Positions 33,606 to 57,806 of a DNA stretch of 64,000 bases are shown here, in pieces. Origin of the DNA: Bugula neritina (taxonomy: Eukaryota > Animalia > Bryozoa); assembly GCA_964035545.1 (NCBI GenBank), contig OZ037769.1:9009929-9073928 (forward strand), given 5' to 3'. A program made the translations under genes and the position numbers. The notes below the pieces were generated by a model. The model saw only the letters and a program-made list of their open reading frames with translations, had not been told where the DNA came from and made no database searches. Each line of letters begins with the position of its first letter. The stretch's first letter is position 1.

Positions 33606-34504
33606 ATGGCAGAAGACGGCGCGGAGCTACCCATTCCGCTGAATGAGGGTGAGGAAGATAATGTTGATATACCTGTGGAACCAGTAGTGTTAGAAGAAGT
33701 GAGAATTCCTAGAGAGCCTGGTGAAGGCAGATACCGGCTGAAGGCGCCCACCTTCACAGGTAGTTGCACGGTGGCCACCAAGGGTGGCGTTGCTCAAACT
33801 CAGGATGGCGCTGACGGACAAGGCTAAGCCATATGGAGCGGGACCTGACATAGACGGGATCTTTGCTTCTCTGTGGGCCCATTTTGGTATCTCCCCCATA
33901 GATGCGCGGGCCCGCCTACAAAGGCTGCGGCGTGATCCTCACACGTCGCTACAGGAGCACGCTGCCACGGTGTACCCGCTGGCGCAGATCACGTTCCGCG
34001 ATCTGCCTCAAGTACACCGTGAGAGGTATACTTATGATGCCTTCGTACAGTCCATCAACGACTTGGGGCTCCACCATCAGTTCCAAGCGAGGGGAGTCAC
34101 CACGGTCGAGGATGCACTTGCGGTGGGAGAAGCCTACCTCATGGCGACTCATATGCACCGCAATCGCGTGGTCTCCCGCCAGGTGGCCACGGAGCACACT
34201 ACTGCTCATACTGAACCAAATGGGGAACCCTCCGCGGTGGCTAATGTGAACCAGATGTCACTAGCATCGAAAGTCGCACAAATGACTGACATGCTAGATA
34301 AACTGGTCGCCACATTAGCTCCCCCAAGCCAGGTAGATACCGCCGTGAGCCTTGCAGGCCGCAGGTACAATCACCAGGCATGGGGCATAACTTCTGCTGG
34401 GGATGCGGAAGGCCAGGACATTTTCAAAAGAACTGCCCTCAACTCCAACAAGGGTTAAACTACCACGGCCCGCAGATGTTCCCACCTCCTGCGGGCCGCC
34501 GGTA
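33606..34504 (+). pseudogene. gag: Gypsy gag, frameshifted
   Basis: KAPTFTG start, capsid-like RLQRLRRDPHTSLQEHA and CCHC knuckle CWGCGRPGHFQKNC (34395-34436) lie in different frames. A G-TTA-AAC -1 slippery site at 34454-34460 leads into the pol frame. Confidence 0.75.
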
Positions 34505-37072: not shown

Positions 37073-37742
37073 TGTATTATGCATGCCAAATATTTACTAC
37101 AAATTTCAAAATTAGCATAACTAAGTAGACGTATTACTGTGCCTATTTGCATCCAATTTACTAGTCTTACATTTATAGCAATTGTAACGTATTTTGTGTA
37201 AAATGGTTATTGCAAGCATTATTCAATTCATATTCACATTGTAATCACAGCAAAACCTATATGCATTGAAATATGTTTAAAAACTCTACCAATAAAAAAA
37301 AACTAAAAAAAATGGACACAGAAAATAAAAAAAAATAAAATCACAAAAGTGGCAAAATTTTTCCTCTATAACTTATATAAACTCGCGGTACCAGTAGCGG
37401 CATAATGATTTTTCATGGTTTAAAGTCAACACTCCTAAATATACCACACTGCACGCGGGGAACTACTAATTTTAATAGTATTATTATTATTGCTGTGGCC
37501 TGCGAGTTTGTTACTTGAACTCCAAGCTTTATCAGGTAACTTCAAAAATTGTTCAATATTGGTCTTGAAATGATGCATAGTCTAATTGAAAGTATAATTG
37601 TAAGATATCCCTTCAAATTTTTTATTTTATATTTAGAATAATTATAAAAAAGTGATACTAATACTAATAGTAAATGTAATACTAATACTAACAGTAATAG
37701 TAATACTTATAGTTATACTTATACTTATGGTTATACTAATAC

Positions 37743-38381
37743 TGTTATAACGGGAACTTGTGGTATCCCGCTACAACTTACTGTACAGCTGTTACTAATA
37801 TGGCTAAGCCTTAGTGATTTACTATAACAGTATTATATGCATATACTTTATGGTAATTACCTTGTAGATTGTTGGTGACTCCTCTCGTTCCTGGTACGTC
37901 TACCTGAAGCTGGGTCTTACAGAGGAGTGACTTCAGATAGCTGTTGGGTGTAGCAAGATACTTCTTGCCGGTTAGCTCCACGTCAGCTGCTTCAGGATAG
38001 GTTGAAGTATTACAAGGGTGGCTGTAATACTTAGGTTTCCTGCCGGTTGGTCCACGTCAGCTGCTTCAGGATAGGCTACTGCGTTTACAAGGGTGGCTGC
38101 ATTTCCATATAAGGATAGAGCCAAGAAGCTGCAGGATCAGGGTGTTTGACGTATAGGAACTGACTTCAAAGCGAAAATGTAATTATAATTGTAACGAAAT
38201 TAGTACATGTTACAGACAGTAGGAAACAGATGGGCTATTGTGATGGCATTAGTTCTCTCTAATCCGTATAACAATGAAAAGTTAATATCAATGTGGGGTT
38301 TAGCTGGGCGTTAGGAAATGAGAATGTAGAATGACTCAGTGGGAAATGAATAAACCTAAAGTCCATAATTCCACTACAACA
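37743..38381 (-). repeat. 3' LTR of copy A
   Basis: Matches 44489-45127. Confidence 0.95.
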
Positions 38382-39593
38382 TTTCTCCCGACGAAAAAGA
38401 AAGCATAGCTCCTGCTATGTGTCTGTAGTACTTACAATGTAGTTCGAAATTATGATAAGGTTCTACTTACGAAATTGGGGTGTGGAGGTGAGTCAGTAAG
38501 TGATTCGTCTGAGTAAGTTGGTATTAATCAGAGCGTTCTACTTATTACTTACTAGGACTATTACTAACTAGGATGAGGAAATGGTATGAATGTTAAATTG
38601 CTCCGAATAGTTGTTGCGGCAGATATAATTATTATTAATAAAGTTCGAGTGGCTAGAATGCGGGGTTGTGTCATTGTGTGATTACCGGTAAGTTGGCGCG
38701 ATCCTCAACTATAACTCTACGTACAAGCCACGCTACTCTGTTGACACCACTTTAACTCAATATTTCCATAACCTCAGTTTTCGATATCAGTATGTCTTCC
38801 AGTACGGTAAGTTGGATAATACTAATTAATTCTACGTTTTTATCATTGTGTGGATTCAGTTAGTATATCTGTGATGTGAATATGTACGTAGCTTCAGTGG
38901 TAGTACTAGTAGTAGGCGTAGTATTTCGTTGTAATCAACTTCAAGTTTTTTAAGTTTTACTTCAAACCTATCAAATTAACTTCAGTAATTTAAAGTTCTT
39001 AGTCTAGATGTGACGATGTAACCCAAATTAAGTGTAATTTTCTCGTTCGATTTTTTGAGATATCATTCAAAAGTGATAAATTCAATAAAGTGATAAACTG
39101 TCAGTCCAGTGTCGTTTGACTATAGGTATTAGTTTAGAGTAAGACTAAAGTGTGTGTTTGCTGACCGAATTACCCACTTACAACAGTTATAGTGCTGCTA
39201 CTAGTTGTGGTGTCAATACTTATAGATACTATGTCAATATGTCTGGTCAGTAGTTGAGTAGTATTGGCATTATAAAATTTTAATGATAAGAGTAAAGTTG
39301 TACTTGGTAACAATAGTCATTGGACTTAATGGTGGGTGTTGTCAATTAGTAAACATGTTGCTATTGAATTGTCTAGCCGTTTTTGTAGTTACTTATACTG
39401 GCATAAATCCATCTTTATCTGGTTAATGTTAAAATAAGTAAATAATAATGAAAAAAAAATAATAATAAAAAAAACTTTCACTAGTAGGAGTACTAATTGT
39501 GGGTATTTCGGTCTCAGTGTTTTGTTTATGGTTATATATAATTGATCTAGTGGACCACTGGTATCCACTGCTAGCTGTTAAGCTGCTCACCCA

Positions 39594-40542
39594 ATGAAAA
39601 GAAAAGGGAATGGCTCCTGCCATTCGTTATTCTATTTATTCCTGAAGGGGTTAGTAAGCATTGGGGTGGATTTGTTAGTATCAGCAGACTGTTATATGTT
39701 AGTATCTAACTAGGGGGGGGGGGGGTTGATATGTGCATCCGCTAGGCTATCGCTTATAATGACTTGAATGGATCCTTGCCCTTCAGATCTGCCCAATGCA
39801 CTGCAACTGTTGGAGAGGCAGGGTGTTGGAGTGCTTTAGCAGTACCTCCACGCTTCACAGCACGGTGGCGGAGTTACAACAAACCACGACTGATCTACCC
39901 GTCACGTGGGGTTAGTAATTGGACTTATCGTCTAGCTCAAAGCAGTAGCAGTATAGGGTCGGTCATCGTAGCCATATCAATCCAATTGCCTTTCTGAGTA
40001 AGCATGCCTAGTTTATATGCCACTTTATGCTACAGGGTCTAATGTAACTGAACTCAATTTAACTGAGTTGTTCTCAGCTCAGGAGGACCAAGATGGGGTC
40101 CTCATAATAAGTATTATAGGGCTAGGCACGCTGTTGCTAATGGCAGTGCTCAGCATGTTTGCTTGTCGCTATGGCGCCCGTAGATACATAGAATATAGAA
40201 CCACCCCACAAAGCTAACATTACTAACGTCCCTATAATATACGTATAAATATATATATTTTTGTTTTTGTTTTTTTTTTTTCATTTACTTCATTTTCATT
40301 CACTACTTATATGTATATATTATATGTAAATATGTTTTTGTCATTGTATATCTATATACCAGTTAATAATATGTTAATAATAAATCTAACTACCATTTAG
40401 CTCACATAATCATGTGTTTGTTTTATATTCTCTTTTAGGATACACTGGCCTAGTGGCCGGAATAGTATTAGGGGCCTTGGCCCTAGCCTTAATAGTTTAT
40501 ATATTCTGCTGTTGTAGGCCCGCTTGCAGGGCGAGAGACTGA
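39594..40542 (+). CDS. Antisense spliced small membrane-protein gene in copy A: exons 39594-39653, 39787-39910, then 40036-40217 or 40439-40542
   Basis: GT-AG junctions are in phase: MKRKGNGSCHSLFYLFLKGL|ICPMHCNCWRGRVLECFSST...VTW|GSNVTELNLT...TM...PQS* or |GYTGLVAGIVLGALALALIVYIFCCCRP... Differences from copy B are mainly synonymous. Confidence 0.6.
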
Positions 40543-40852
40543 GTAGTTAGTTTTGTGTTCGTTTTTCTTTTTCTTTTAATAAAGGTAAAATAGTGTAAAT
40601 CTAATCAGCTACCAATTGTATTCGTTTATTTCAATTTGCACTAGTCTTGTTAATGTAATCAACTTGTAAATAGAGGCTGTAGAGTGCGATTAGGATTAGA
40701 GTTGAGCCTTACTAAAACGATGGAATACTAGATAATCAAAATATAGTAGTAAATATGATATGCACTTTAAAAAAAAACAAGCCCAACTCGAACAGTCCGT
40801 CACGTTGAGTGTTTAGTCTTTTATCATGCAACGGTATTATGGTAAGTCTAGT

Positions 40853-43387
40853 CTATAGTCTGTAAGTGAATTGCGCCTCCCTCTTTTGCTTTGGTCTGCG
40901 CCTTAGACCGTATCGTTTATTGTTGCGAGTTGGTGGTGGTGGTGGCTTTATTCTTTCAGCTTCCTCAGTATTGTTATTCTGAGGCTCTTGGATACTAGTT
41001 CCTTCTCGGTTACCATTACTATGTGCAATGTCTGTGTCGGTTCCATTATGGTGTGCATGTTCATCATTATGTGCCTCAATTCCTGTTGTAGGTTGACGGT
41101 CAGTCTCTTGGCAGTCAGTTTCTCGGCAGTCTTCTTCACTAGACGGTCTGTCAGAGTGAAAATTGTCCGATTCTGGAGCTGAAGTTTCAACCTCCTCAGA
41201 ACCTGAGTCTTGGGCCGCAGGTGAGTCTAGCTCAATTGATAGTTCAGATGTGGGTCCTCTAACTATGCTGCACTGATTCTTCGAGAAGAATTGCTTCTTG
41301 CAGCAGTGCTTGTACACTGCTTCAACCTTGTTGTGTGTAGTGAAGACACCATTTCCACCCTTAAGCTCACCCGCGTCACAGTGTTTAGAGGTAACCATGT
41401 CGATGCACTCTCCCCGCGTGATATGCCGGTTCTCTATGTGAGCATTACGGACTTTCACATTGGTGAAGAGAGACATTAACGTGGTGACCACCGACTTGAA
41501 CTTCTTGCATTGGTATGCTGGTGACTCCCATTCTATTGTGTTGGGTTTGTATACCATGATTTTTGTCTGTTGGGGCTGTCGCGAGGGGTCAGTCTTGTCA
41601 TGTCCGGGGCAGGTGTAGTTAGTGTTCAGTCGGAACAAGTGGGGTTGGTCAGTATGGTGTGAGCCGCATACCATGGGGTTTTTTGCTTCTACCGGGGTCG
41701 CTCCACAGCCAAGGAAACAGCTTAGCAAGCATAGCATTGCTAGTTGTACCGCATCCATGACTGAGAGTTTTCTGCCACCTCTTCTACTTTTGGCCTTCGG
41801 TCCTTTTGCCTTGGGAGTTAGTTCTACGGCGTTGACGTGTTCCTGGCCTGGATCTTGATTTAGGAACTGGAATGCAAACTCGTCAGGACCGAGGTCGCTG
41901 ACGACGTTTACATTAGAGCATTTGCTCCCATAATGCCGGTTCCCGCAAGACTTGCAGGGCCAAGGATTTTGTCCACGCCCATTGCCGTAGTTCTGACCTG
42001 TGTGATTGTTATTGTGTCTGTGTGAAGATTGGTGGTTGTATGACCCTCTTTGTTGGTTAAAAGGGGTTTGGTGTTGGTTAAAAGGAGCCTGATGTTGGTT
42101 GTGGGTGCCTTGGTTATAGTAGCGCTGTGGTTGATTGTAACCACCTCTTCTGTTGCCTCGGTTACCACCGCGTCCTCTACCACGGTATCGGTTGGACTGG
42201 TAGTTATTGCTCCTGTAACTTTTCTCCTCTTGCTCCTTGGATCTTATTGACTGAGCTTTTATAAGCTCAGCCAGACCGTCTATCTGCTTTTGCAGAGGAG
42301 CTATGAGTTCTGCTTGGCTCCGGTTATAATTAATTTCCGCGACTATTTCTGACTCTATGAAATTTATTTTTTGAGTCTTGAGTGCCCCATCTACCGCTTC
42401 CAGCTTCTTTGCTTCCTCCAAGGTCTGCTGCAGGGTGAGTTCACCCTTCAGAAGGATATCCCTCTGATGGGCTTCGTTCAGCCCTGCAATGAATACGTTC
42501 GTCAACACCTTGTCTCTATATTCCTCCGGCATATCCAGGAATGCCGACTGGCCTTGAGAGACTACTTCTGTGAAGAATTCTCCAACAGTTTTCTTCCCCT
42601 GTGACAGTTTCCAGAGGCTCTTCCCTAGCAGTGGGTTGCTTCTCTGGAACATTGTAGCCAGTTTGGGTTTAAGTGCAGTGTAGCTGGTGGCACAGCCGGG
42701 CGCCTGTTTCACTACCTTTCGGTACGTTTGCCAAGCTGAGCCAGTGAGCTTGGCAGGTATAGCGAGGGCTAGTTGTTCGTTGTCATATCGATGGGGGGCC
42801 ATTAGAACTTCCCATCTCTCTATAAAATTCTCCCAGGACTCAGTAGAGTCACCGGAGAAGGATGGCAGGCTATCCAAGTTGGGTGCCACACTTGCTATGA
42901 TCTGCGTTTGGAATGGATTGGCGGTTGGTATGTTGGTAGAGGGTATGCCGCGTGGAGGTCGTGTTTGGGTTGAATAAGTTTGTAGTGTTGGGGTCATATG
43001 AGCTTGAGTTGACAAGCCATAGTTTGTCATTGTAAGGCTGGGTGTAGGGCCTGTTGAAGTGTTGCTGTTGATACAGTCACGTCGTAGCTCTGGAGATAAT
43101 GAGTTCCAAAACTTCACTATCTCTTCCTTCGAGGTGGGTGTGTAAATTGTGTTTTTGGGTCTTGTGCCCGTATCGCTCGATGTCGTGGTCGAGCTGGTTA
43201 TAGTGGTTGTCGCGGTTAGTGGAGTGTCAGTATTGTCAGATAGTGTAGTAGGGGTTGAGGTGGTTATGGGAGGTTGTGTGGTAGTGTCGGAGCTCAATGT
43301 GGTAGGGGCAGACGAGGTTGCTTCTCCTGGGGTAGCCATTTGTCTAGTTCTAGTTACACTCCGTGTCACCCGCCTGTTACTACTCAT
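40853..43387 (-). CDS. gag: Intact 844-aa Gag - signal - partial Env fused in frame to the C-terminal tail of Pol
   Basis: Capsid-like LPSFSGDSTESWENFIERW and LSQGKKTVGEFF, knuckle CKSCGNRHYGSKC, hydrophobic AVQLAMLCLLSCFLGCGA, Cys-rich Env N-terminus, then GPTSELS matching the end of copy B pol. Confidence 0.9.
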   Translation of the reverse strand: MSSNRRVTRSVTRTRQMATPGEATSSAPTTLSSDTTTQPPITTSTPTTLSDNTDTPLTATTTITSSTTTSSDTGTRPKNTIYTPTSKEEIVKFWNSLSPELRRDCINSNTSTGPTPSLTMTNYGLSTQAHMTPTLQTYSTQTRPPRGIPSTNIPTANPFQTQIIASVAPNLDSLPSFSGDSTESWENFIERWEVLMAPHRYDNEQLALAIPAKLTGSAWQTYRKVVKQAPGCATSYTALKPKLATMFQRSNPLLGKSLWKLSQGKKTVGEFFTEVVSQGQSAFLDMPEEYRDKVLTNVFIAGLNEAHQRDILLKGELTLQQTLEEAKKLEAVDGALKTQKINFIESEIVAEINYNRSQAELIAPLQKQIDGLAELIKAQSIRSKEQEEKSYRSNNYQSNRYRGRGRGGNRGNRRGGYNQPQRYYNQGTHNQHQAPFNQHQTPFNQQRGSYNHQSSHRHNNNHTGQNYGNGRGQNPWPCKSCGNRHYGSKCSNVNVVSDLGPDEFAFQFLNQDPGQEHVNAVELTPKAKGPKAKSRRGGRKLSVMDAVQLAMLCLLSCFLGCGATPVEAKNPMVCGSHHTDQPHLFRLNTNYTCPGHDKTDPSRQPQQTKIMVYKPNTIEWESPAYQCKKFKSVVTTLMSLFTNVKVRNAHIENRHITRGECIDMVTSKHCDAGELKGGNGVFTTHNKVEAVYKHCCKKQFFSKNQCSIVRGPTSELSIELDSPAAQDSGSEEVETSAPESDNFHSDRPSSEEDCRETDCQETDRQPTTGIEAHNDEHAHHNGTDTDIAHSNGNREGTSIQEPQNNNTEEAERIKPPPPPTRNNKRYGLRRRPKQKREAQFTYRL

Positions 43388-44488
43388 ACAATGTGTGTGT
43401 TTGTTTATTATTGGCTTATTTTGTTTTCTGTAAATTATTAGGGCAGGTATATTTAGTTAGTTTGTTTTCTAATCACCGTTTTAATTAGTACTGTATTTAG
43501 TTATTTGTGTTTAATAATAAGTTGGAACAGTGGAACAGTAGAAGGATGTAAATAGTACCACTATGACTATCCTTTTGGTAGTTTGTAACTACCTTGTGAA
43601 TGTGGAAATTAGGTTAATTATGTCGGTTCTTGTTTCCTTTCTTAATTAGGCAATTATTCTTAAATTAGATTAGATATAAGATAAATCTCCTGTTTTTTAT
43701 TTTTTATGAAATTAATTATTACAATTTGAACGTTAGGTATATGGTTGTAGCAGCTATCGAAGTTTCTTGATACTTATTTCTAGTTGGATAATTCAGTTTA
43801 GGTTTTATAACTTAGCTTATATATCTAAGGTTGTAAATTATTATACTTGAACTTAATTTTTAAATTAGCGGTACCTCCTATCTAGATATTGGACGTGTGT
43901 TAGCCTTGGGGTAGTTCTATATTGTGTTTATAAACTTACCCTGACTGGTTACGTTGTGGGTTGGGGTTAGCACTCACCAGTCTCCGTGGGGTGCGATTGT
44001 TCCCTTGACGAGTTTGTGATGATTTATAATTAATTGTTTAAAGATACTGATTTCTGTAACAGCAAAAGTAGTGTTAATAACACAGCAACAAGTAATATTG
44101 AAGCTTATAAAAAGGGAGTTGAGTCTTGGAATTCAAAATTGACAGTACTTAATATATATTGTTTGGTATTAGATACCGGGACTCTAGGTCAACCACTAAA
44201 ATTTTTAATTGTATTTCTATAGCGCTTGTTTGAGTGTATTGCTTTAATTTATGTGTCGTGGGACCAGTACTGTATTTGATATGTTCAATTATTAATTAGG
44301 CCTATTATAGACTCTAAACTCTACCTTTAGTTAAAAATAGCTTGTCCTCAAGCTTGTGTGAGCCCCTGATACAATAGCTCGGCAGTAATAGCTACCTAAG
44401 CCAAGTATAACTGAGTGGTTAATCTCAGTGATCAGCAAATAAATGCTTTGCAATACGAGAGGGGGACCGAAATGGTACCTCCACCAAA

Positions 44489-45127
44489 TGTTATAACGCG
44501 AACTTGTGGTATCCCGCTACAACTTACTGTACAGCTGTTACTAATATGGCTAAGCCTTAGTGATTTACTATAACAGTATTATATGCATATACTTTATGGT
44601 AATTACCTTGTAGATTGTTGGTGACTCCTCTCGTTCCTGGTACGTCTACCTGAAGCTGGGTCTTACAGAGGAGTGACTTCAGATAGCTGTTGGGTGTAGC
44701 AAGATACTTCTTGCCGGTTAGCTCCACGTCAGCTGCTTCAGGATAGGTTGAAGTATTACAAGGGTGGCTGTAATACTTAGGTTTCCTGCCGGTTGGTCCA
44801 CGTCAGCTGCTTCAGGATAGGCTACTGCGTTTACAAGGGTGGCTGCATTTCCATATAAGGATAGAGCCAAGAAGCTGCAGGATCAGGGTGTTTGACGTAT
44901 AGGAACTGACTTCAAAGCGAAAATGTAATTATAATTGTAACGAAATTAGTACATGTTACAGACAGTAGGAAACAGATGGGCTATTGTGATGGCATTAGTT
45001 CTCTCTAATCCGTATAACAATGAAAAGTTAATATCAATGTGGGGTTTAGCTGGGCGTTAGGAAATGAGAATGTAGAATGACTCAGTGGGAAATGAATAAA
45101 CCTAAAGTCCATAATTCCACTACAACA
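44489..45127 (-). repeat. 5' LTR of copy A
   Basis: Followed on the minus strand by the PBS TGGTGGAGGTACC. Confidence 0.95.
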
Positions 45128-45516
45128 ATACTAATAGTAAATGTAATACTAATACTAATAGTAATAGTAATAGTGACTAATAGTAATACTAATACTAATA
45201 ATAATACTGATAGTATTAGTAATTGTTATTGTATTTGTAATAAACTTGACATAATGATTAAGTTTAACATTATGATTATTTGCATTATAATAATAATTAT
45301 AATTATTATTATCATCATTATGATTATCGTTATACTCATTGATTATCATTATGATTGTCACCTATCACTAAATTATATCAGTATTACTATGATTATGAGT
45401 ATCAGTATGACTATCACTATGAGACATGATGATGATTATGAGTATGACTATCAGCATCACTATAAAATATGAATATGATTATAAAATAAATATATTATTG
45501 CAGTTACTGTTAGTAT
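45128..45516. repeat. Low-complexity (TAA/TAC/TAT/GAT) spacer between the two head-to-head elements
   Basis: Direct reading; similar sequence flanks copy A on the left (37655-37742). Confidence 0.85.
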
Positions 45517-46147
45517 TGTTGTAGTGGAATTATGGACTTTAGACTTGTTTAATTCTCATTCTACATTCTCATTTCCTAACGCCCAGCTACACTCCACATT
45601 AAGATTAACTTTCCATTGTTATACAGATTAGAGAGAATTAATGTCATCACACTAGCCAAGCTGTCTCCTACTGTCTGTAACATGTACTAATTTCGTTACA
45701 ATTATAATTACATTTTCGCTTTGAAGTCAGTTCCTATACGTCAAACACCCTGATCCTGCAGCTTCGTGGCTTTATCCTTATATGGAGATGCAGCCACCCT
45801 TGTAAAGGCAGTAACCTATCCTGAGATAGCTGACGTGGACCAACCGGCAGGAAGCCTAAGTATTACAGCCACTCTTGTAATACTGCAACCTATCCTGAAG
45901 CAGCTGACGTGGAGCTAACCGGCAAGAAGTATCTTGCTATACCCAACAGCTATCTGAAGTCACTTCTCTGTAAGACCCAGCTTCAGGTAGACGTACCAGG
46001 AACGAGAGGAGTCATCAACAATCTACAATGTAATTACCATAAAGTATATGCATATAATACTGTTATAGTAAATCACTAAGGCTTAGCCATATTAGTAACA
46101 GCTGTACAGTAAGTTGTAGCGGGATACCACAAGTTCCCGTTATAACA
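45517..46147 (+). repeat. 5' LTR of copy B
   Basis: TGTTGTAG...TTATAACA. Confidence 0.95.
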
Positions 46148-46149
46148 TT

Positions 46150-46162
46150 TGGTGGAGGTACC
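46150..46162 (+). promoter_or_regulatory. Primer-binding site, tRNA-Ala-like
   Basis: TGGTGGAGGTACC, 2 nt after the LTR; resembles the complement of the tRNA-Ala 3' end (..CUCCACCA). Confidence 0.6.
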
Positions 46163-47224
46163 ATTTCGGTCTCCCCTCTCGTATTGCAAAGCATTTATTT
46201 GCTGATCACTGAGGTTAACCACTCAGTTATACTTGGCTTAGGTAACTATTACTGCCGAGCTATTGTATCAGGGGCTCACACAAGCTTGAGGACAAGCTAT
46301 TTTTTTAACTAAAGGTGGAGTTTAGAGTCCATAATAGGCCTAAATAATAATTGAACATATCAAATACAGTACTGGTCCCACGACACATAAATTAAGGCAA
46401 TACACTTGAATAAGCGCTATAGAAATACAATTAAAAATTCTAGTGGTTGACCTGGAGTCCCGGTATCTAATACCAAACAATATATATTAAGTACTGTCAA
46501 TTTTGAATTCCAAGACTCAACTCCCTTTCTATAAGCTTCAATATTACTTGTTGCTGTGTTATTAACACTACTTTTGCTGTTACAGAAATCAGTACCTTTA
46601 AACAATTAATTATAAATCATCACAAACTCGGCAAAGGGAACAATCGCACCCCACGGAGACTGGTGAGTGCTAACCTCAACCCACAACATAACCAGTCAGG
46701 GTAAGTTTATAAACACAATATAGAACTACCCCAAGGCTAACATACGTCCAATATCTAGATAGGAGGTACCATTAATTTAAAAATTAAGTTCAAGTATAAT
46801 AACTATAATAATTTACAACCTCAGATATATAAGCTAAGTTATAAAACCTAAACTGAATTATCCAGTTAGAAATAAATATTGAGAAACTTTAATAGCCGCT
46901 GCAACCATATACCTAACATCCAAATTGTAATAATTAATTTCATAAAAAATAAAAACAGGAGATTTATCTTATATTTATTTTAATTAAAGAATAATTGCCT
47001 AATTAAGAAAGGAAACAAGAACCAACATAATTAATCTAATTTCCACATTCACAAGGTAGTTACAAACTACCAAAAAGATAGTCATAGTGGTATAATTTAC
47101 ATCCTTCTACTGAAACAGAAGGCTCACTCTGTTCCAACTTATTATTAAACTAACTGAGTACACCTGCCATAATAATTTATAAAAAACAAAATAAGCCAAT
47201 AATAAACAAACACACACACATTGT

Positions 47225-48934
47225 ATGAGTAGTAACAGGCGAGTGACACGGAGCGTAACTAGACAAATGGCTACCTCAGGAGAAGCAACCTCATCTGCCC
47301 CTACCGCATTGAGCTCCTCTTCCGACATTACCACACAACCTCCCATAACCACCTCAACTTCAACTACACTACCTGACTATACTGACACCCCACTAACCGC
47401 GACAACCACTATAACCAACTCGACCACGACATCAAGCGATACGGGCACAAGACCCTAAAACACAATATACACACCCACCTCGAAGGAAGAGATAGTGAAG
47501 TTCTGGAACTCACTATCTCCAGAGCTACGACGGGACTGTATAAACAGCAATAGTCCAACAGGCCCTACACCCAGCCTTACGATGACCAACTATGGCTTGT
47601 CAACTCAAGCTCATATAACCCCAACACTACAAGCTTATTCAACCCAACCACGACCTCCACGCGGCATACCCTCTACCAACATAGGCCTACCAACCGCCAA
47701 TCCGTTCCAAACGCAGATAATGGCAAGCGTGGCACCCAACTTGGATAGCCTGCCATCCTTCTCCGGCGACTCTACTGAGTCCTGGGAGAATTTTATAGAG
47801 AGATGGGAAGTCCTGATGGCTCCCCATCGATATGACAACGAACAACTAGCTCTCGTCATACCTGCCAAGCTCACTGGCTCAGCTTGGCAAACGTACCGAA
47901 AGGTAGTGAAACAGGCGCCCGGCTGTGCCACCAGCTACACTGCACTTAAACCCAAACTGGCTACGATGTTCCAGAGAAGCAACCCACTGCTAGGGAAGAG
48001 CCTCTGGAAACTGTCACAGGGGAAGAAAACTGTTGGATAATTCTTCACAGAAGTAGTCTCTCAAGGCCAGTCGGCATTCCTGGATATGCCGGAGGAATAT
48101 AGAGACAAGGTGTTGACGAACGTATTCATTGCAGGGCTGAACGAAGCCCATCAGAGGGATATCCTTCTGAAGGGTGAACTCACCCTGCAGCAGACCTTGG
48201 AGGAAGCAAAGAAGCTGAAAGCGGTAGATGGGGCACTCAAGACTCAAAAAATAAATTTCATAGAGTCAGAAATAGTCGCGGAAATTAATTACACCCGGAG
48301 CCAAGCAGAACTCATAGCTCCTCTGCAAAAGCAGATAGACGGTCTGGCTGAGCTTATAAAAGCTCAGTCAATAAGATCCAAGGAGCAAGATGAGAAAAGT
48401 TATCGGAGCAATAACTACCAGCCCAACCGATACCGTGGTAGAGGACGCGGTGGTAACCAAGGCAACAGAAGAGGTGGTTACAACCAACCACAGCGCTACT
48501 ATAACCAAGGCACCCACAACCAACATCAGGCCCCTTTTAACCAACACCAAGCCCCTTTTAACCAACAAAGAGGGTCATATAACCACCAATCTTCGCACAG
48601 ACACAATAACAATCGCACAGGTCAGAACTACAGCAATGGGCGTGGACAAAATCCTTGGCCCTGCAAGTCTTGCGGGAACCGGCATTATGGGAGCAAATGC
48701 TCTAATGTAAACGTCGTCAGCGACCTCGGTCCTGAAGAGTTTGCATTCCAGTTCCTAAATCAAGATCCAGGCCAGGAACACGTCAATGCCGTAGAACTAA
48801 CTCCCAAAGCAAAAGGACCGAAAGCCAAAAGTAGAAGAGGTGGCAAAAAACTCTCAGTCATGGATGCAGTACAACTGGCAATGCTATGCTTGCTAAGCTG
48901 TTTCCTTGGCTGTGGAGCGACCCCGGTAGAAGCT
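47225..48934 (+). pseudogene. gag: gag of copy B plus internal signal peptide
   Basis: Colinear with the copy A ORF, but with nonsense changes AAA>TAA (47456) and GAA>TAA (48038). Confidence 0.9.
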
Positions 48935-50864
48935 AAAAACCCCATGGTATGCGGCTCACACCATACTGACCAACCCCACTTGTTCCGACTGAACACTAAC
49001 TACACCTGCCCCGGACATGACAAGACTGACCCCACGCGACAGCCCCAACAGACAAAAATCATGGTATACAAACCCAACACAATAGAATGGGAGTCACCAG
49101 CATACCAATGCAAGAAGTTCAAATCGGTAGTCACCACGTTAGTGTCTCTTCACCGACGTGAAAGTCCGTAATGCTCACATAGAGAACCGGCCTATCACGC
49201 GGGGAGAGTGCATCGACATGGTTGCCTCTAAACACTGTGACGCGGGTGAGCTTAAGGGCGGAGATGGTGTCTTCACTACGCGCAACAAGGTTGAAGCAGT
49301 GTACAAGCACTGCTGCAAGAAGCAATTCTTCTCGAAGAATCAGTGCAGCATAGTTAGAGCGACCGTGTACAAAAGGCATGAGGATAAGGAATTCGAGTCC
49401 ACTGCAGGTGACGTTCGTCATTGCAAATATGACGAAGGAAGCTGCAAATTGGACGACGGTTCCATCCTCATATGGGAACCACGGAAGCAGACCCACTGCA
49501 AACATACGGAGTGGTACATGGAGGAAGGCACCTTCTTCGACAACCACTTCGTCAGTAGTGACCACTCGATGGCCTTGACGTTCGCCCGATATGGAATCTA
49601 CTCGACGAAGGACTGCCACGGCAAGAACACGTCGATGTCGGACCAAGGGCTGATGTTAAGGTTCATGACGCCACTCCACAATGTTACCATACTTAACAAC
49701 GTCACAGCCACATATCAAGTTGGAGGCTCATATGCGTCTACAATAAACGCAGTAGCGCAAGCTCTAGCGTTAGAACAAATCACCACCGCACAAAAACTAT
49801 TCTGGACCTCATACTACTATTCGTGTCACAACACTGCCCAAACCATTAACCTCATCACTCTCTTACTTGAACGACATCCCACAACAGCAGCAAGACACAT
49901 GTTGCAATTGAGTAACGTGGTCGCGAAAGCCGGCCCTGGCTACTTAGAGGTGTACCCCTGCACCGAGTTGGAAAGAACTTCTTACCAACTACTGAAAATG
50001 AAACACAACAACTGCACCAACTACTTGCCGATACAAATATCTATAGCTGGTCTTGAATCCATTGGATATCTGGACCCTGTAAATAACATAATACACCCTG
50101 ACTCATACAATGTAGACTGCACCCACAGAGAGGAAGTTCCTGTGAAATTGGACGGTATTATTTACCTATATTCATGGAACGAATCTCTAAAACTGGCCCC
50201 AAACACTACAATTCTATCCTTGCCAAACATCAAATTAGGAGCTACTCCCTTGGAATCACACGAAAATATCTTCAGTCGCGCACATAGACTAAATTGGGCT
50301 GATTTTAGCCATCACCACTCCTTAAATGCTATCCTTTCAACACTCAACCGCCAAACACAGGTGTTGAAAGCCGTTGGAGTTGTTAGCTTTCCACACTATA
50401 CACTAGACAAAAATAGAATAGAGACCCAAGAAGGCATACTGGGTAATTCATATTTCTCCTTCTTGTTCGGAGGTCATGTAGCCTCAGTATATGAATTGTG
50501 GACCATGCTAGCAAATCTCATCGTGGCGATTGCTTCAATCGTCTTTATTTCCAAGAAATTATACTATCATCTATGCATCAAATACATCTGCAAAAGGCGT
50601 GGCAGAATCGTAGTAGATGCTGTGGACATTGTAGAACAAAGTACAACACACCAACCAACAGCAGAGGAAACTACGACAGCCACGGAATTACATTCTTTAA
50701 TAACCCCCACTCATTCCCAAGTAGAAAGTACAACCCCCATTTCTACTATTAACTCAAACACCCCATCAGCAAGGTTATACCCTGCGCTTGAGAATATAAC
50801 CGAAACAGATGACATCGCTTGGCCTTCTTGGACCAAGCAAGCCAGGCAAGAGTCTTCACAATGA
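48935..50864 (+). CDS. env: Envelope glycoprotein, class III (gB/chuvirus-G-like) candidate; 2-nt deletion near 49150 in this copy
   Basis: Cys-rich ectodomain (AYQC, ECIDMV..KHC, GDVRHCKYDEGSCKLDDGSILIWEP, YPC, NCTNYLP), several N-x-S/T sequons, TM LWTMLANLIVAIASIVFI, and an S/T-rich cytoplasmic tail. Confidence 0.8.
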
Positions 50865-53800
50865 CTAGCCACGCCGTCGCCGAAAACCGCTGCCCAAGTA
50901 TTGGGAATTCTGGATAGTCGCACCTGTCAGACAACAACAATAAGGGCAGAGGTAAACGGCAAGAGGTGTACCGCGTTAGCAGACGCTGGCGCATCCATAA
51001 GTATTGTGAACTCAAATATCGCTGCCAACTTAGGGTTGGCACTACAACCACACAAGATTAAGGCAAGGGGTGTTACCAACAGCTCCTTAGACATTCTCGG
51101 GAAATCGGACGTAGTGATTACAATAGGAAAAGACACAAGAGTAGAACATTCACTCTTTGTGGCCAATGCAATTACTCACGACGTCATTTTAGGGTCTGAT
51201 TTTCTAGCAAAACTGGGAGAAGTCACCTACGATTTCCAGAGGTGCACATTGGGTTTCAATCAACGGAAGATACCCATGGGACCGGAAGCCATAAACAACG
51301 TAGCACGGACGGCATATAGCGTGGACATACCGCCTCTGTCAGAGATGGCAGTGGTGGCCACCATCACAAGTCCATCCTTGGACGGTGCCACCTGCTATTT
51401 TGAAGGCAACAAATTACCACAAAAGGTAATGGTAGGAAAATCAATTGACAGGGTAGTCAAGAGACGCATTTGGGTGCCAATAATGAATTGCACTAAGACT
51501 CCCATAACTATTCCAGAAGACACGATCGTGGGTAACGTGGAACAGGTGGAAGAAAATCTGGAACTACTCAAGGTCAACTCCCCAAAAGAAAAATCGAAGA
51601 CTCTATCCAAACCTAGCTCAAGTCTGAAACTGGAGGACACCACATTGGATCTACACCAGTTTCAGAAGCTACGAGGGCTGGTGGACGAGTTTCAAGATAT
51701 CATTTGAGAAGGAGTCACTGACCTTGGACGTACTGATATAGTACAGCCCGTGGTGGAAACAACCCCCAGTACGCACCCGATACGAAGCCGACCATACGTC
51801 ATTCCAGTAGGTATTAGGTCGGAAGTAAAAGCACAACTGGATGAAATGCAAGAAGCCGGGCTGATCACACCCAGCGCTGGCAATTGGACCTCACCAGTTG
51901 TGTTGGTCAAGAAGAAAGATGGGAGGTGGAGATTCTGCGTAGATTACCGGAAACTGAACTCCGTGACGATTAAGCAGTCTATGGCAATATCGAGCATAGA
52001 GAACGCTGTTGAAATCATGCACAACAAGAAGTACTTCAGCAGCATCGATCTATGTTCCGGTTTCTTCCAAGTAGCACTGCACGAGTCGTCTCAGGAGAAA
52101 TCAGGGTTCATAACGCCATTCGGCTGTTATGAATTTAAGGTAATGCCACAAGGAATGTCGGGCTCACCTGCGACTTTCACTCGCCTCGCATTAGCCATCA
52201 TGGCCGACCTGATAAGTGAGGGCAGCAGTTGCGTCTACCTAGACGACTGGCTGATGACATCAACCACGTTTGAGACCCATTTGCAACTACTCAGGACAGT
52301 GTTTTCCAGGCTCCGTTACGCTGGACTAAAGTTCAGACTGAGTAAAAGCCAGCTATGTCAGAAGGAGATCCTATACCTGGGACACATATTGTCGAGCAAA
52401 GGTATAGCAGTTGCACCTCACAATACCGAAAAGATCAAAAATTTCCCCACTCCGCGGAACAAAACGGAAGTCAAGAGACTTCTTGGTCTTTTCGGGTATT
52501 ACAGGTCATTCATAAAAAACTTCGCGCGGATCGCGACTCCTATTATTAAACTCACGTTCAAGGACGCCGAGTTTGTCTGGTCGGTAGAATGTCAGAGGGC
52601 TTCGGAAGAGCTGAGAACCAGAATCACCACAGCACCAATTCTGGTTTTTCCTGACATTAAAAGCCCATTTATCTTAACGACTGGTGCATCGGCAACTGCG
52701 ATTGGGGCTGTCCTGTCTCAGCTCCGAGACAATAAGGAACACCCCATATCGTTCTACTCTCGTACGCTAACAGCCGCCGAGAGGAAATGGGACGCCTGCC
52801 AGCAGGAGCTCTTCGCTATAGTGTGCGCTGTCAAACACTACAGGCAGTATCTGATGAATGTCAAATTCAGATTGATCACAGATAACGCTGCCTGTACGTA
52901 CATGATGAAGAAACCAGACTTGTCTCCCCGCCTTGCCAGATGGGCAATACAACTGGCCGACTATGACTTTGAGGTCATACACCAGGCGGGCAAACAGAAC
53001 GTGGTGGCCGACGCTCTGTCACGAGCAGAGATTCTTGCTGTAGAATCCTGCCCTATCGACGAACAGGCAAGAAATCAGCAGAAGAGAGACTACTTCTTAG
53101 GGCCAGTACTTCTGTACCTGGAGAAGGGGAAGTTTCCGGAAGACGCCTCCAAGGCGAAAGCGAATCAGATAGTTGCGGACAGCAAACAATTCAAGATAAT
53201 TGACGGGCTCGTGTACCGTAACTATCAAGACAAAGCACTTCTGGCTATCCCCTCAAGTCAGCGTCACCTCCTGATGTACGCTATGCATGACAGCATATCG
53301 GCTATGCATCCAGGAATGACTAAGACTATGCTCCGGTTGAAACAACACTACTGGTTCCCGAAGATGCACCAGGCAGTCGAAAAATATATCTCAGAATGCC
53401 ACTCATGTCAGCAGAGGAAGAACCCGAAAGTTCAGACTCGGGTCCCTCTGGCAACAAGGATAGCGACAGAGCCATTCCACACGCTATCCATGGACTTCCT
53501 CGGTCCGTTCGTGCAGAGTGCTGATGGAATGAAATACGTTCTGGTATTTACCGACCATTTTACAAAATGGTGCGAAATGATCTGCACTGCTGACCAATCA
53601 GCAGCAACAGTCGCTCGCGTCTATGTTGAGCAGATCTTTTGCAAATTCGGGGCCGCATCAGTACTACTCTCGGACAGGGCCAAGTCTTTCATGGGTTCAG
53701 TTATGGTTGAAGTGAACAAACTTCTCAAAACTGACTCCAAATTTAGTGTACCGTACTCGCCAGCATCCAACGGACAAGTGGAGATATACAACAAAACCAT

Positions 53801-54728
53801 CGCCAATATGTTGTCCCACTTCGTCGACCCAGGCACCCATCGCGATTGGGACAGATACATCCCGTTCTGTCAACTGGCGCACAATTCATCAGTACACACC
53901 ACCACCACCACGACACCAAGTATGCTCTTATTCTGCAGAGAAATGCGAATGCCATACGAGCTGACCAAACCTCGCCCACCTGTTGTGGAAGACGACGTCC
54001 CGTACGTTACGAAGTTGCTCAACAGAATGCAAGAGGTTTGGGACACAGCCAGACAGTTGATAGGAAAGGGCAAAGAAAGGCAGAAGAGATACGACAAGAA
54101 AGCACACCCCACAGATCTCAGAGTGGGAGATATAGTGTTGTACTATAATAAAAGGGCGTACAAAAACAAGACTGCTAAATTAATAAAGCGATGGCAGGGC
54201 ATGTACATAATAAAACATATAACCGATACAACTGCTGCCATACAACTATTCAACGAGCCAGATCAGGCACCATTTAGGGTGCATTTGAACCTAATGAAAA
54301 GGTACAAGGGACCTCTAGTTAGAGGACCCACATCTGAACTATCAATTGAGCTAGAGTCACCTGCGACCCAAGGCTCAGGTTCTGAGGAGGTTGAAACTTC
54401 AGCTCCAGAAACGGACAATTTTTACTCTGACAGACTGTCTAGTGAAGAAGACTGCCGAGAAACTGACTGCCAAGAGACTGACTGTCAACCTACAACAGAA
54501 ATTGAGGCACATAATGATGAACATGCACGCCATAATGAAACCGACACAGACATTGTATATAGTAATGATAACCAAGAAGGAACTAGTATCCAAGAGCCTC
54601 AGAACAACAATACTGAGGAAGCTGAAAGAATAAAGCCACCACCACCACCAACTCGCAACAATAAACGATACGGTCTAAGGCGCAGACCAAAGCAAAAGAG
54701 GGAGGCGCAATTCACTTACAGACTATAG
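50865..54728 (+). CDS. pol: Pol (PR-RT-RNase H-IN), in frame with env; one internal TGA at 51705-51707
   Basis: ALADAGAS/VILGSDFL (PR); WRFCVDYRKLN, MPQG, YLDD (RT); TGAS..ELFA..TDN (RH, first Asp is Gly); H-H-CHSC, SMDFLGP, LSDRA, GQVE (IN). Ty3/Gypsy domain order. Confidence 0.95.
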
Positions 54729-55029
54729 ACTAGACTTACCATAATACCGTTGCATGATAAAAGACTGAACACTCACTGTGACGGACTATTCTAGTTAGGC
54801 TTGCTTTTTTTTAAAGTATATATCATATTTACTACTATATTTTGATTATCTAGTATTTCATCGATTTAGTAAGGCTCAACTCTAATCCTAATTGCACTCT
54901 ACAGCCTCTATTTACCAGTTGATCACATTAGCAAGACTAGTTCAACTTGAAATAAACGAATACAATTGGTGGCTGATTAGATTTACACTATTTTACCTTT
55001 ATTTAAAAAAAAAAAAACACAAAACAAAC

Positions 55030-55970
55030 AAACTACTGAGTTGTCTCTCGCCCTACGAGCGGGCCTACAACAGCAAAATATATAAGCTAATAAGGCTAGG
55101 GCCAAGGCCCCTAATACTATCCCAGCCACTAGGCCAGTGTATCCTAAAAAAAAATAAAAAACAAACACATGATTATGTGAGCTAAGTGGTAGTTAGATTT
55201 ATTGTTAACATATTATTAGCTGGTGTATAGATATACAATGACAAAAACATATTTACATATAATATATACATATAAGTAGTGAATAAAAATAAAGTAAATG
55301 AAAAAAATATATATATATATATACATATATTATAAGGACGTTAGTAATGTTAGCTTTGTGGGGTGGTTCTATATTCTATATATCGACGAGCGCCATAGCG
55401 ACAAGCAAACATGCTGAGCACTGCCATTAGCAACAGCGCGCCTAGCCCTATAATACTTATTATGAGGACCCTATCTTGGTCCTCCTGAGCTGAGAACAAC
55501 TCAGTTAAATTGAGTTCAGTAACGTTAGACCCTGTAGCATAAAGTGGCATATAAACTAGGCATGCTTACTCAGAAAGGCAATTTGATTGATATGGCTACG
55601 ATGACCGACCCTATACTGCTACTGCTTTGAGCTAGACGATAAGTCCAATTACTAACCCCACGTGACGGGTAGATCGGTTGTAGTTTCTTGTAATTCCACA
55701 GCCGTACTGTGAAGCGTGGAGGTACTACTAAAGCACTCCAACACCCTCCCTCTCCAACAGTTGCAGTGCATTGGGCAGATCTGAAGGGCAAGGATCCATT
55801 CAAGTCATTATAAGCAATAGCCTAGTGAATGCATATATCAACCCCCCCCCCTAGTTAGTTACTAACATATAACAGTCTGCTGATACTAACAAATCTACCC
55901 CAATGCTTACTAACCCCTTGATGAGTAAATAGAATAACGAATGGCAGGAGCCATTCCCTTTTCTTTTCAT
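55030..55970 (-). CDS. Antisense spliced small membrane-protein gene in copy B: exons 55970-55911, 55780-55657, then 55531-55350 or about 55143-55030
   Basis: Same exon lengths (60, 124 and 182 nt) and splice sites as in copy A. Confidence 0.6.
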
Positions 55971-57169
55971 TGGGTGAACAGCTTAACAGCTAGCAGTGGG
56001 TACCAGTGGTCCATTAGATCAATTATATATAACCATAAACAAAACACTGAGACCAAAATACCTACAATTAGCACTCCTACTAGTTAACGTTTTTTTATTT
56101 TTTCACTATTATTTACTTATTTCAACACTAACCAGATAAAGATAGATCTATGCGTGTATAAGTAACTACAAAAACGGCTAGACAATTCATTAGCAACACG
56201 TTTACCAATTGACAACAGCCATCATTAAGTCCAATGATTATTATTACCAAGTACAACTTTACTCTTATCATTAAAATTCTATAACGCCAATACTACTCAA
56301 CCAGACATATTGACATAGTATCTATTAGTATTGACACAACTACTACTAGTAGCAGCACTATAACTGTTGTAAGTGGGTAATTCGGTCAGCAAACACACAC
56401 TTTAGTCTTACTTTAAACTAATACCTATAGTCACACGATACTGTACTGACAGTTAGTGAGTTTATCACTTTATTGAATTTATCACTTTTGAATGATATCT
56501 CAAAAATCGAACGAGAAATTACACTTAATTTGGGTTATATCGTCACATCTAGACTAAGAACTTTAAATTACTGAAGTTAATTCGATAAGTTTGAAGTAAA
56601 ACTTGAAGTCGATCACAACGAAATACTACGCCTACTACTACTATACTACTACAACTACTACTGAAGCTACGTACATATTCACATCACAGATATACCAACT
56701 GAACCCACACAATGATAAAAACGTAGAATTAATTAGTATTATCCAACTTACCGTACTGGAAGACATACTGATACGGAAAACTGAGGTTTATGGAAATATT
56801 GAGTTAAAGTTGTGTCAACAGAGTAGCGTGGCTTGTATGTAGAGTTATAGTAGAGGATCGCGCCAACTTACCGGTAATCACACAACCTCGCATTCTAGCC
56901 ACTCGAACTTTATTAATATTAATTAGATCTGCCGCAACAAATATTCGGAGCAATTTAACATTCATACCATTTCCTCATCCTAGTTAGTAATAGTCCTAGT
57001 AAGTAATAAGTAGAACGCTCTGATTAATACCAACTCACTCAGACGAATCACTTACTGACTCACCTCCATACCCCAATTCCGTAAGTAGAACCTTATCATA
57101 ATCTCGACCTACGTTATAAGTACTTCAGACACATAGCAGGAGCTATGCCTTCTTTTTCGTCGGGAGAAA

Positions 57170-57806
57170 TGTTGTAGTGGAATTATGGACTTTAGGTTTA
57201 TTCAATTCCACTGAGTCATTCTACATTCTCATTTCCTAACGCCCAGCTAAACCCCACATTGATATTAACTTTCCATTGTTATACGGATTAGAGAGAACTA
57301 ATGCCATCACAAAGCCCATCTGTTTCCTACTGTCTGTAACATGTACTAATTTCGTTACAATTGTAATTACATTTTCGCTTTGAAGTCAGTTCCTTTACGT
57401 CAAACACCCTGATCCTGCAGCTTCGTGGCTCTATCCTTATATAGAAATGCAGCCACCCTTGTAAATGCAGTAGCCTATCCTGAAGCAACTGACGTGGACC
57501 AACCGGCAGGAAACCTAAGTATTACAGCCACCCTTGTAATACTTCAACCTATCCTGAAGCAGCTGGCGTGGAGCTAACCGGCAAGAAGTATCTTGCTACA
57601 CCCAACAGCTATCTGATTTCACTTCTCTGTAAGACCCAGCTTCAGGTAGACGTACCCGGAACGAGAGGAGTCATCAACAATCTACAAGGTAATTACCATA
57701 AAGTATATGCATATAATACTGTTATAGTAAATCACTAAGGCTTAGCCATATTAGTAACAGCTGTACAGTAAGTTGTAGCGGGATACCACAAGTTCCCGTT
57801 ATAACA
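57170..57806 (+). repeat. 3' LTR of copy B
   Basis: Preceded by GGGAGAAA; TG...CA ends. Confidence 0.95.

What the first reader, a model, noticed from the sequence alone, without database searches (positions are those of the whole stretch)
48935..50570. Env resembles a class III viral fusogen rather than the baculovirus-F-type env of insect errantiviruses
Seen: the Cys spacing and motifs (ITRGECIDMV..KHC..G.L, GDVRHCKYDEGSC.LDDGS.LIW, PTTAARHML...VVAK.GPG.LEVYPC, C..YLPI). Inference from recalled patterns: these resemble chuvirus/mononegaviral G and herpes-gB-like envelopes captured by some invertebrate LTR elements. This suggests capture from an RNA virus and possible infectivity.
Basis: inference. 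Interest (0 to 1): 0.7.

Follow-up and report, generated by a model that had tools for sequence, protein, structure and literature searches.

The report
Herpes-like envelope retrotransposon with leaky stop
This is a decayed copy of a retrovirus-like jumping gene, likely from a bryozoan, whose envelope protein is predicted to fold like the herpesvirus fusion protein gB (a layout already published), and whose intact relatives likely make their copying enzymes by reading through a conserved stop codon at the end of the envelope gene, a step not found in the papers searched.

Summary
The motifs are real and the class III call holds: a family profile hits herpesvirus gB (15 of 16 PDB hits, best 4e-15), predicted models match gB first, and among viral models Nyamiviridae G ranks highest, at only 14-19% identity. 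The env sits between gag and pol in a Ty3/gypsy LTR element and is 49% identical (by eye) to a published bryozoan GAG-ENV-POL gB-type errantivirus. That layout is known (PMC13524379), and this scan met it before on other DNA. Recent capture from an RNA virus is unsupported, and this copy is broken (three internal stops, one frame break).

Not found in print: gag and env are one frame in relatives; env ends in CAA-UGA-CUA, a known readthrough context, followed in frame by a Pol with no Met before the protease active site. The 9-mer is identical in three diverged lineages, two of them with saturated synonymous sites, and 9 of 12 rows of the clade end in Gln. The Env tail carries late-domain-like motifs (10 of 11; shuffles 0.7). 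Likely mechanism: one Gag-Env polyprotein, with Pol added by readthrough onto Env's cytoplasmic tail. Untested at the bench.

The parts
45517..46147 (+). 5' LTR of copy A (TG...CA)
   Evidence: 93.3% identical to the 3' LTR
46150..46162 (+). primer-binding site, TGG-starting, 2 nt after the LTR; complementary to a tRNA end ...CUCCACCA (Ala-like, recalled)
   Evidence: same site in copy B; this PBS has 0 occurrences in the element table of PMC13524379
47225..48850 (+). gag (about 542 codons), in frame with env; in-frame stops at 47456-47458 and 48038-48040 in this copy
   Evidence: Retrotrans_gag E 0.0093 here and 1.4e-4 in copy B, where the frame is open
48851..48934 (+). internal hydrophobic segment after a basic stretch: predicted signal anchor / signal peptide joining Gag to Env
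   Evidence: hydropathy 1.99; same segment in L001, L003, P0011; cleavage is inferred
48935..50495 (+). Env ectodomain, class III (gB-type); reading frame broken within 49143-49171
   Evidence: six N-glycosylation sequons in the second frame, no furin site
50496..50552 (+). transmembrane anchor of Env
   Evidence: hydropathy 2.17; helix in both models
50553..50861 (+). Env cytoplasmic tail (103 aa) with LYPAL at 50775 (late-domain-like or YxxL sorting motif)
50859..50867 (+). CAA-TGA-CTA: env stop codon in a readthrough-type context
   Evidence: identical in L001, L002, L003; no substitution in it among the 40 rows shown of 50 for sister contigs, one contig with a 1-nt gap at 50867
50865..54728 (+). 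pol, same frame as env: protease, RT (YLDD), RNase H, integrase; in-frame stop at 51705-51707 in this copy, RNase H motif degenerate (motif recalled)
   Evidence: frame continuous in L001 and L003
57162..57169 (+). polypurine tract GGGAGAAA
57170..57806 (+). 3' LTR of copy A
37743..45127 (-). copy B: young, internally deleted sister element, head to head with copy A; open Gag-signal-Env(N-half) frame joined in frame to the end of pol
   Evidence: LTRs 99.8% identical, GTAT target duplication; junction at a 9-nt microhomology; ORF 40853-43456

Best explanation
The region is the env gene of a decayed Ty3/gypsy LTR element with the order gag-env-pol; its Env is predicted to be a gB-type class III fusogen, and intact family members likely translate one Gag-Env polyprotein and likely add Pol by occasional readthrough of the UGA at the end of Env's cytoplasmic tail. 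Shown: gene order, one open Gag-Env frame in relatives, two hydrophobic segments, the conserved CAA-UGA-CUA with Pol in frame behind it. Inferred: the internal hydrophobic segment sends Env into the ER and is cut by signal peptidase, leaving Gag in the cytosol at 1:1 with Env; readthrough yields a minority Env-Pol fusion that tethers the enzymes to the budding membrane until the protease frees them; late-domain-like motifs in the tail recruit ESCRT; the particles would pass between cells of the same animal. This copy can make neither Env nor Pol.
For: Fold: profile vs PDB 15 of 16 hits gB, best 4.3e-15; Foldseek best gB 4.9e-21; all 13 chains with Z>=5 of 48,161 are class III; the window's own frame gives gB Z 9.1, rmsd 13.9, 329 aligned. 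Group: 85 of 175 residues and 9 of 9 Cys shared, gap-free, with Bryozoa Cpal_errantivirus_6 (counted by eye). One frame: copy B, P0010, P0011, L001-L003. Readthrough: 9-mer identical in the window, L001/L002 and L003, Env 42-44% identical; synonymous sites saturated between L001 and L003 (pS 0.83 env, 0.76 pol); first Met at codon 67-138, protease DAG at 40-41; clade of 12 rows (SH-aLRT 96) all stop after the tail, 9 ending in Gln, while many outer rows run on into protease; UGA-CUA(G) is a tested readthrough context (PMC3159437, PMC4132726). Tail motifs 10 of 11, shuffle mean 0.72, max 5. Env under purifying selection, pN 0.25 vs pS 0.83.
Against: DNA at the junction was seen for only three lineages (L001 and L002 are one element; L004 ends before the junction). 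3 of the 12 clade rows end in His, Arg or Asn, and 6 of 39 other membrane-anchored rows also end in Gln. The tree is the quick one, without bootstrap. A 3' stem-loop in the window (z -3.4) is absent in L001/L003 and sister variants break it in 7 of 18 changes. TM-scores to gB are only 0.31-0.39 for postfusion forms and pTM 0.42-0.51. The tail motifs were chosen after seeing them, rows are related, and YPxL is also a YxxL sorting signal. The host is inferred, not shown (one search gave no names). No readthrough, fusion or particle was measured.
Confidence: 0.72

Rival explanations
1. Same element and same class III Env, but Pol comes from a spliced message (as in foamy viruses, recalled) or from non-AUG initiation; the stop is a true stop.
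For: A CTAG (possible acceptor) lies at 50865-50868 in the window; contigs drop rare splice forms, so cannot exclude one.
Against: L001-L003 have CTAT, not AG, at that place while keeping CAA-TGA-CTA and the frame; none of the 15 joints shown (8 not shown) has GT..AG ends; splicing would not need the codons on both sides of the stop to stay fixed.
Confidence: 0.15
2. One reading: env was captured from a chuvirus or mononegavirus, recently enough to name the donor, and made the element infectious.
For: Best viral models are Nyamiviridae G (9e-29, 1e-28); relatives hit Pfam Monjiviricetes_fusion, some above its cut-off.
Against: 10-19% identity to any viral G; 431 relatives, many fused to gag, protease or RT; no relative found in viral contigs; PMC13524379 section 10 argues for an ancient origin; the direction of transfer was not tested.
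Confidence: 0.1
3. The env stop is ordinary decay or an assembly error in a once continuous gag-env-pol frame.
For: Copy A has three other in-frame stops; 18 distant relatives run from Env into protease without a stop.
Against: The stop and its context recur in relatives whose two long frames are otherwise open, and all 12 clade rows end after the tail.
Confidence: 0.03

Closest known systems
Bryozoan GAG-ENV-POL, HSV/gB-type errantiviruses, cysteine type C2b (Chary and Hayashi, eLife 2026, PMC13524379); nearest row seen Cpal_errantivirus_6
   Same: gene order, Ty3/gypsy pol, LTRs, gB-type Env; 85 of 175 residues and 9 of 9 Cys in domains I-II (by eye)
   Different: another family (about half the residues differ; PBS not in their table); this copy is broken; the paper's text says nothing on readthrough, polyprotein, splicing or late domains
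Nematode endogenous retroviruses, NERVs (Sacco et al. 2022; not held, known only from its citation in PMC13524379 and from recall)
   Same: env placed before pol; Env like nyamivirus G (recalled)
   Different: recalled as one continuous gag-env-pro-pol frame; here a conserved stop separates env from pol
Herpesvirus gB and Nyamiviridae G (class III fusogens)
   Same: predicted fold, long central helix, Cys register in the C-terminal half, C-terminal anchor
   Different: 12-19% identity; shorter; made as part of a Gag fusion; no furin site
Type II stop-codon readthrough (alphavirus UGA-CUA; mammalian UGA-CUAG), PMC3159437 and PMC4132726
   Same: UGA followed by CUA (CUAG in the window), polymerase in frame downstream
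   Different: lies behind a membrane protein's cytoplasmic tail in a retroelement; no conserved 3' stem-loop could be shown
Gammaretrovirus gag-pol readthrough and SIRE1 pol-env readthrough (both recalled)
   Same: a leaky stop sets the ratio of structural protein to the downstream product
   Different: those use UAG and other gene orders; neither hangs Pol on Env

Membership tests
Class III viral fusion proteins (gB type) | overall fold matches gB / rhabdovirus G / GP64 | tested here: met
   (gB Z 12.4, rmsd 11.3, 437 aligned; all 13 chains with Z>=5 class III)
Class III viral fusion proteins (gB type) | long central helix followed by beta-rich crown domain | tested here: met
   helix 293-339 in the P0001 model; PRV gB domain IV Z 8.7, rmsd 3.7, 165 aligned
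Class III viral fusion proteins (gB type) | signal peptide and C-terminal transmembrane anchor | tested here: met
   hydropathy peaks at 48851-48907 and 50496-50552; no dedicated signal-peptide predictor was available
Class III viral fusion proteins (gB type) | two hydrophobic fusion loops at the tip of domain I | tested here: inconclusive
   a hairpin tip with conserved aromatic residues and a Tyr-Cys-Cys loop are candidates; not mapped by superposition
Class III viral fusion proteins (gB type) | trimer that fuses membranes | not testable with these tools
   no trimer fold was run; fusion needs the bench
F-type (baculovirus F-like) errantivirus Env | furin site followed by a hydrophobic fusion peptide | tested here: not met
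   no R-x-K/R-R in the window frame or in P0001; no internal hydropathy peak
F-type (baculovirus F-like) errantivirus Env | class I fold | tested here: inconclusive
   a family not listed is not excluded; every strong match is class III
GAG-ENV-POL gB-type Ty3/gypsy errantivirus (bryozoan C2b) | order gag-env-pol between LTRs, with PBS | tested here: met
GAG-ENV-POL gB-type Ty3/gypsy errantivirus (bryozoan C2b) | Ty3/gypsy pol, protease-RT-RNase H-integrase | tested here: met
   domain order and Pfam families; no RT tree against named references was built
GAG-ENV-POL gB-type Ty3/gypsy errantivirus (bryozoan C2b) | C2b cysteine pattern in domains I-II | tested here: met
   9 of 9 Cys in register with Cpal_errantivirus_6 over 175 gap-free residues, by eye; the defining figure could not be seen
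GAG-ENV-POL gB-type Ty3/gypsy errantivirus (bryozoan C2b) | bryozoan host | tested here: inconclusive
   inferred from Env similarity; a flanking gene gave only unnamed relatives
GAG-ENV-POL gB-type Ty3/gypsy errantivirus (bryozoan C2b) | intact reading frames | tested here: not met
   copy A has three internal stops and a frame break; copy B is deleted. This marks the copies as decayed, not as non-members
BEL/Pao elements with chuvirus-like glycoprotein | BEL/Pao-type gag and pol | tested here: not met
   only Ty3/gypsy-type Pfam families at E<=1; assignment of these families to Ty3/gypsy is recalled
Type II readthrough signal | UGA followed by CUA or CGG, with the dependent gene in frame | tested here: met
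Type II readthrough signal | 3' RNA structure | tested here: inconclusive
   window z -3.4 but no better than 5 of 62 other windows of the element; L001, L003 not stable; sister changes do not spare it
Type II readthrough signal | measured readthrough | not testable with these tools
   needs reporter, proteomics or ribosome profiling

The most novel reading that the evidence does not exclude
A clade of animal retroelements assembles like a membrane-polyprotein virus: Gag, a gB-type fusogen and the enzymes come from one message, the Env cytoplasmic tail rather than Gag carries the ESCRT late domains, and Pol is loaded into particles as a readthrough extension of Env, with the leaky stop gained in this clade from ancestors that had one continuous frame.
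Probability: 0.4. Interest if true: 0.72.

Novelty: new variant of a known kind. Interest (0 to 1): 0.48.

Why it matters
The class III envelope by itself is one more member of a published group. What could matter is how the odd gag-env-pol order is expressed: PMC13524379 catalogues the order without a mechanism. A conserved UGA-CUA between Env's tail and Pol would set the enzyme dose, explain how Pol reaches the particle when it is not fused to Gag, and add a new place for readthrough in retroelements. Late-domain-like motifs kept in the tail, swapping among YPxL, P(T/S)AP and PPxY, suggest selection for budding, which bears on the open question of whether these invertebrate Env proteins serve cell-to-cell spread.

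Tried and rejected
Single-sequence searches of the window's env found nothing useful: Pfam only a spurious TraP hit, PDB 0 hits. No class I or class II fusogen appeared in the listed rows of the fold searches; absence from a list is not exclusion. A conserved 3' stem-loop stimulator was tested and not supported: 7 of 18 natural changes break pairs against 16 of 73 possible transitions, and 5 of 62 windows of the element fold as well. The env frame break as a programmed frameshift was rejected, since copy B, P0001, P0003, P0007, P0010, P0011 and L001-L003 are open there. Viral contigs: 55 pattern matches, no relative. No genome is held for the window, so copy number is unknown. Host naming by a flanking NHL-repeat gene gave 34 mostly unnamed relatives. 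Expression: contigs from four RNA-labelled runs (one on record as RNA) cover 29-30 of 30 bins, but contigs may hold DNA, so transcription is not shown. No tRNA gene in the window to test the PBS. No trimer prediction was run. Sacco et al. 2022 is not held.

Full report
Observation. The N-terminal part of the protein is in another frame (48041-49171), continuous with gag; the frames overlap at 49143-49171, where the gene is broken.

The element. Env lies between gag and pol. Copy A runs from an LTR at 45517-46147 through a primer-binding site, gag (ATG 47225), env, protease, RT, RNase H and integrase (to 54728), a polypurine tract and an LTR at 57170-57806. It has in-frame stops at 47456-47458, 48038-48040 and 51705-51707, the env frame break, and a degenerate RNase H motif (motif recalled), so it can make neither Env nor Pol. 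Copy B (37743-45127, minus strand) faces it head to head, has LTRs 99.8% identical and a GTAT duplication, keeps one open frame from Gag into the first part of Env, and has lost the rest of env and most of pol at a 9-nt microhomology. No genome is held for the window.

Class of the fusogen. The single sequence finds no informative Pfam family and no PDB chain, but has 431 relatives at E<=0.001. A profile of 117 of the 155 proteins then held matches 16 PDB sequences at E<=10, of which 15 are herpesvirus gB (best EBV gB, 4.3e-15), in both the N- and C-terminal parts. A model of P0001, a natural unbroken relative 91% identical to the window's frame (pLDDT 77, pTM 0.51), gives gB in every listed Foldseek row (best 4.9e-21; TM about 0.3-0.4). 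Against 48,161 chains, all 13 with Z>=5 are class III: gB (12.4, rmsd 11.3, 437 aligned), Chandipura G (8.2), thogotovirus Gp, GP64 (6.0), rabies G. The window's own frame, which lacks the N-terminal strands, gives gB Z 9.1 and class III in the top eight rows, then generic helices. Among predicted viral structures the top hits for P0001 are Beihai rhabdo-like virus 3 and Midway nyavirus G, both Nyamiviridae; for the window model an unclassified ribovirus leads, then the same two; chuvirus-like G first appears at rank 8-9. Identities are 10-19%. There is no furin site.

What is known. PMC13524379 (read: abstract, section 5 part 1 of 2, section 6, section 10, passages; supplement file 2 part 1 of 34, file 3 part 1 of 114, and term searches; figures not visible) reports gB-type Env in Ty3/gypsy elements across invertebrates, the order GAG-ENV-POL in Nematoda, Bryozoa and Platyhelminthes, and argues for an ancient origin and not a recent capture. 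In its supplement, the bryozoan row Cpal_errantivirus_6 shares 85 of 175 residues and 9 of 9 cysteines with the window's frame without a gap (counted by eye). The host is thus likely a bryozoan; a flanking gene gave no names. Two earlier notes of this scan describe the same layout on other DNA and reach the same paper; I checked the paper, not their windows; no note matched this sequence. Capture from a nameable RNA virus is not supported, and its direction was not tested.

How Pol is likely made. The protease frame starts directly after the env TGA, in the same frame. A metagenome scan gave 4 loci from 177 pattern matches. In L001, L002 (one element) and L003 a Gag-Env frame of 1,141-1,206 codons ends in CAA-TGA-CTA and is followed in frame by 1,140-1,306 open codons of Pol; L004 ends before the junction. 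The window has the same 9-mer, the longest invariant block in a 238-column alignment; it occurs once in each of the three loci, and 3 times in the 64 kb window against 1.0 expected. Env identity to these loci is 42-44%, and synonymous sites between L001 and L003 are saturated (pS 0.83 in env, 0.76 in pol; pN 0.25 and 0.08), so the fixed codons are not simple inheritance, and env is under purifying selection. No Met precedes the protease motif at codon 40-41 in any of the three (first Met 67, 67, 138). Among sister contigs in four runs none of the 40 substitution rows shown (10 not shown) falls in the 9-mer, 12-nt shorter variants end just before it, a diverged variant matches up to its last base and goes on in frame (read by eye), and one contig has a 1-nt gap at 50867. 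At protein level, 13 of 24 relatives that end 60-150 residues after the anchor end in Gln (three are near-copies of the window), against 6 of 39 other anchored rows and 5% Gln overall. In a quick tree of 51 rows (no bootstrap; rows kept only if they span the ectodomain to the anchor) the window sits in a 12-row clade (SH-aLRT 96) whose members all stop after the tail, 9 in Gln and 3 otherwise; 18 more distant proteins run on into a protease motif. UGA-CUA is the Type II readthrough context of alphaviruses, and UGA-CUAG gives readthrough in four mammalian genes (passages of PMC3159437 and PMC4132726). Against this: a 3' stem-loop, common in that type, is predicted only for the window and is not spared by variation. 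Contigs of RNA-labelled runs bridge the junction and show no GT..AG joint among 15 shown, but they cannot prove transcription or exclude rare splicing.

The tail. YPxL, P(T/S)AP or PPxY occur in 10 of 11 clade tails (near-copies dropped; shuffle mean 0.72, maximum 5 in 2,000) and 15 of 44 other tails (mean 2.2, maximum 9); two members lacking YPxL have P(T/S)AP; 3 of 6 Gag parts hold such a motif. These are the three retroviral late-domain types, normally in Gag (passages of PMC8952333). The motifs were picked after seeing them, the rows are related, and YPxL also fits a YxxL sorting signal (recalled).

Mechanism. Shown: order, single Gag-Env frame, two hydrophobic segments, fixed stop context, in-frame Pol, tail motifs. 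Inferred: the ribosome makes cytosolic Gag, the basic-then-hydrophobic segment threads Env into the ER and is cut, the anchor returns the chain to the cytosol, most ribosomes stop and a few read on into Pol. Gag and Env are then equimolar, Pol rides into the particle on Env's tail, ESCRT is recruited by the tail, and the fusogen lets particles enter neighbouring, perhaps germline, cells as in Drosophila errantiviruses (PMC13524379). I put 0.95 on the class III and group assignment, about 0.75 on readthrough, and about 0.5 on the late-domain role.

Novelty. The envelope type and gene order are published. Readthrough, polyprotein, splicing and late domain have 0 occurrences in the main text of PMC13524379, and four library searches listed no paper on them for these elements (listings only). 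The library lacks most subscription papers, including Sacco et al. 2022 (recalled as describing one continuous frame), and I could not see the figures or most supplement rows, where such a remark may stand. Verdict: new variant of a known kind, interest 0.48.

Noticed in passing
window 45517-57806: Copy A's LTRs are 93.3% identical, its 3' LTR is closer to copy B's 5' LTR (97.3%), and its flanks (GTAT, TACT) do not form a target duplication: likely a recombinant of two insertions, or an assembly chimera.
   Followed up: partly
window 37743-45127 (-): Copy B is young (1 LTR difference in 639) yet lacks about 4,965 nt of env and pol, lost at a 9-nt microhomology, and keeps gag open; it implies a recently active helper element.
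   Followed up: partly
window 45128-45516 and 37641-37742: Both copies sit in AT-rich TAGTAT/ATACTA-type simple repeats, both 5' flanks ending TTAGTAT; possible target preference.
   Followed up: no
window 54729-57161: A 2.4 kb stretch between pol and the 3' LTR without a long ORF, kept in both copies.
   Followed up: no
window 33742-36688 (+): An unrelated retroelement remnant (GC 59%) with protease and integrase zinc finger in one 765-aa frame but no RT hit.
   Followed up: partly
window 77-1858 and 6242-7987: A large inverted duplication (87-94%) holding 215-239 aa acidic ORFs with no Pfam hit; a more distant copy at 3071-3640.
   Followed up: no
window 16249-17166 (-): NHL-repeat gene of an expanded family; 27 relatives at 39-72% identity, all unnamed.
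   Followed up: partly
P0124; P0052, P0059, P0065, P0069, P0088: One Env relative carries C-terminal SPRY domains; five form a clade with tails of 550-700 residues and no protease motif.
   Followed up: no
fold search: Entomopoxvirus proteins listed as uncharacterized (Q9YVZ3, W6JPK9, A0A916KPE9) match the model as well as viral G proteins do.
   Followed up: no
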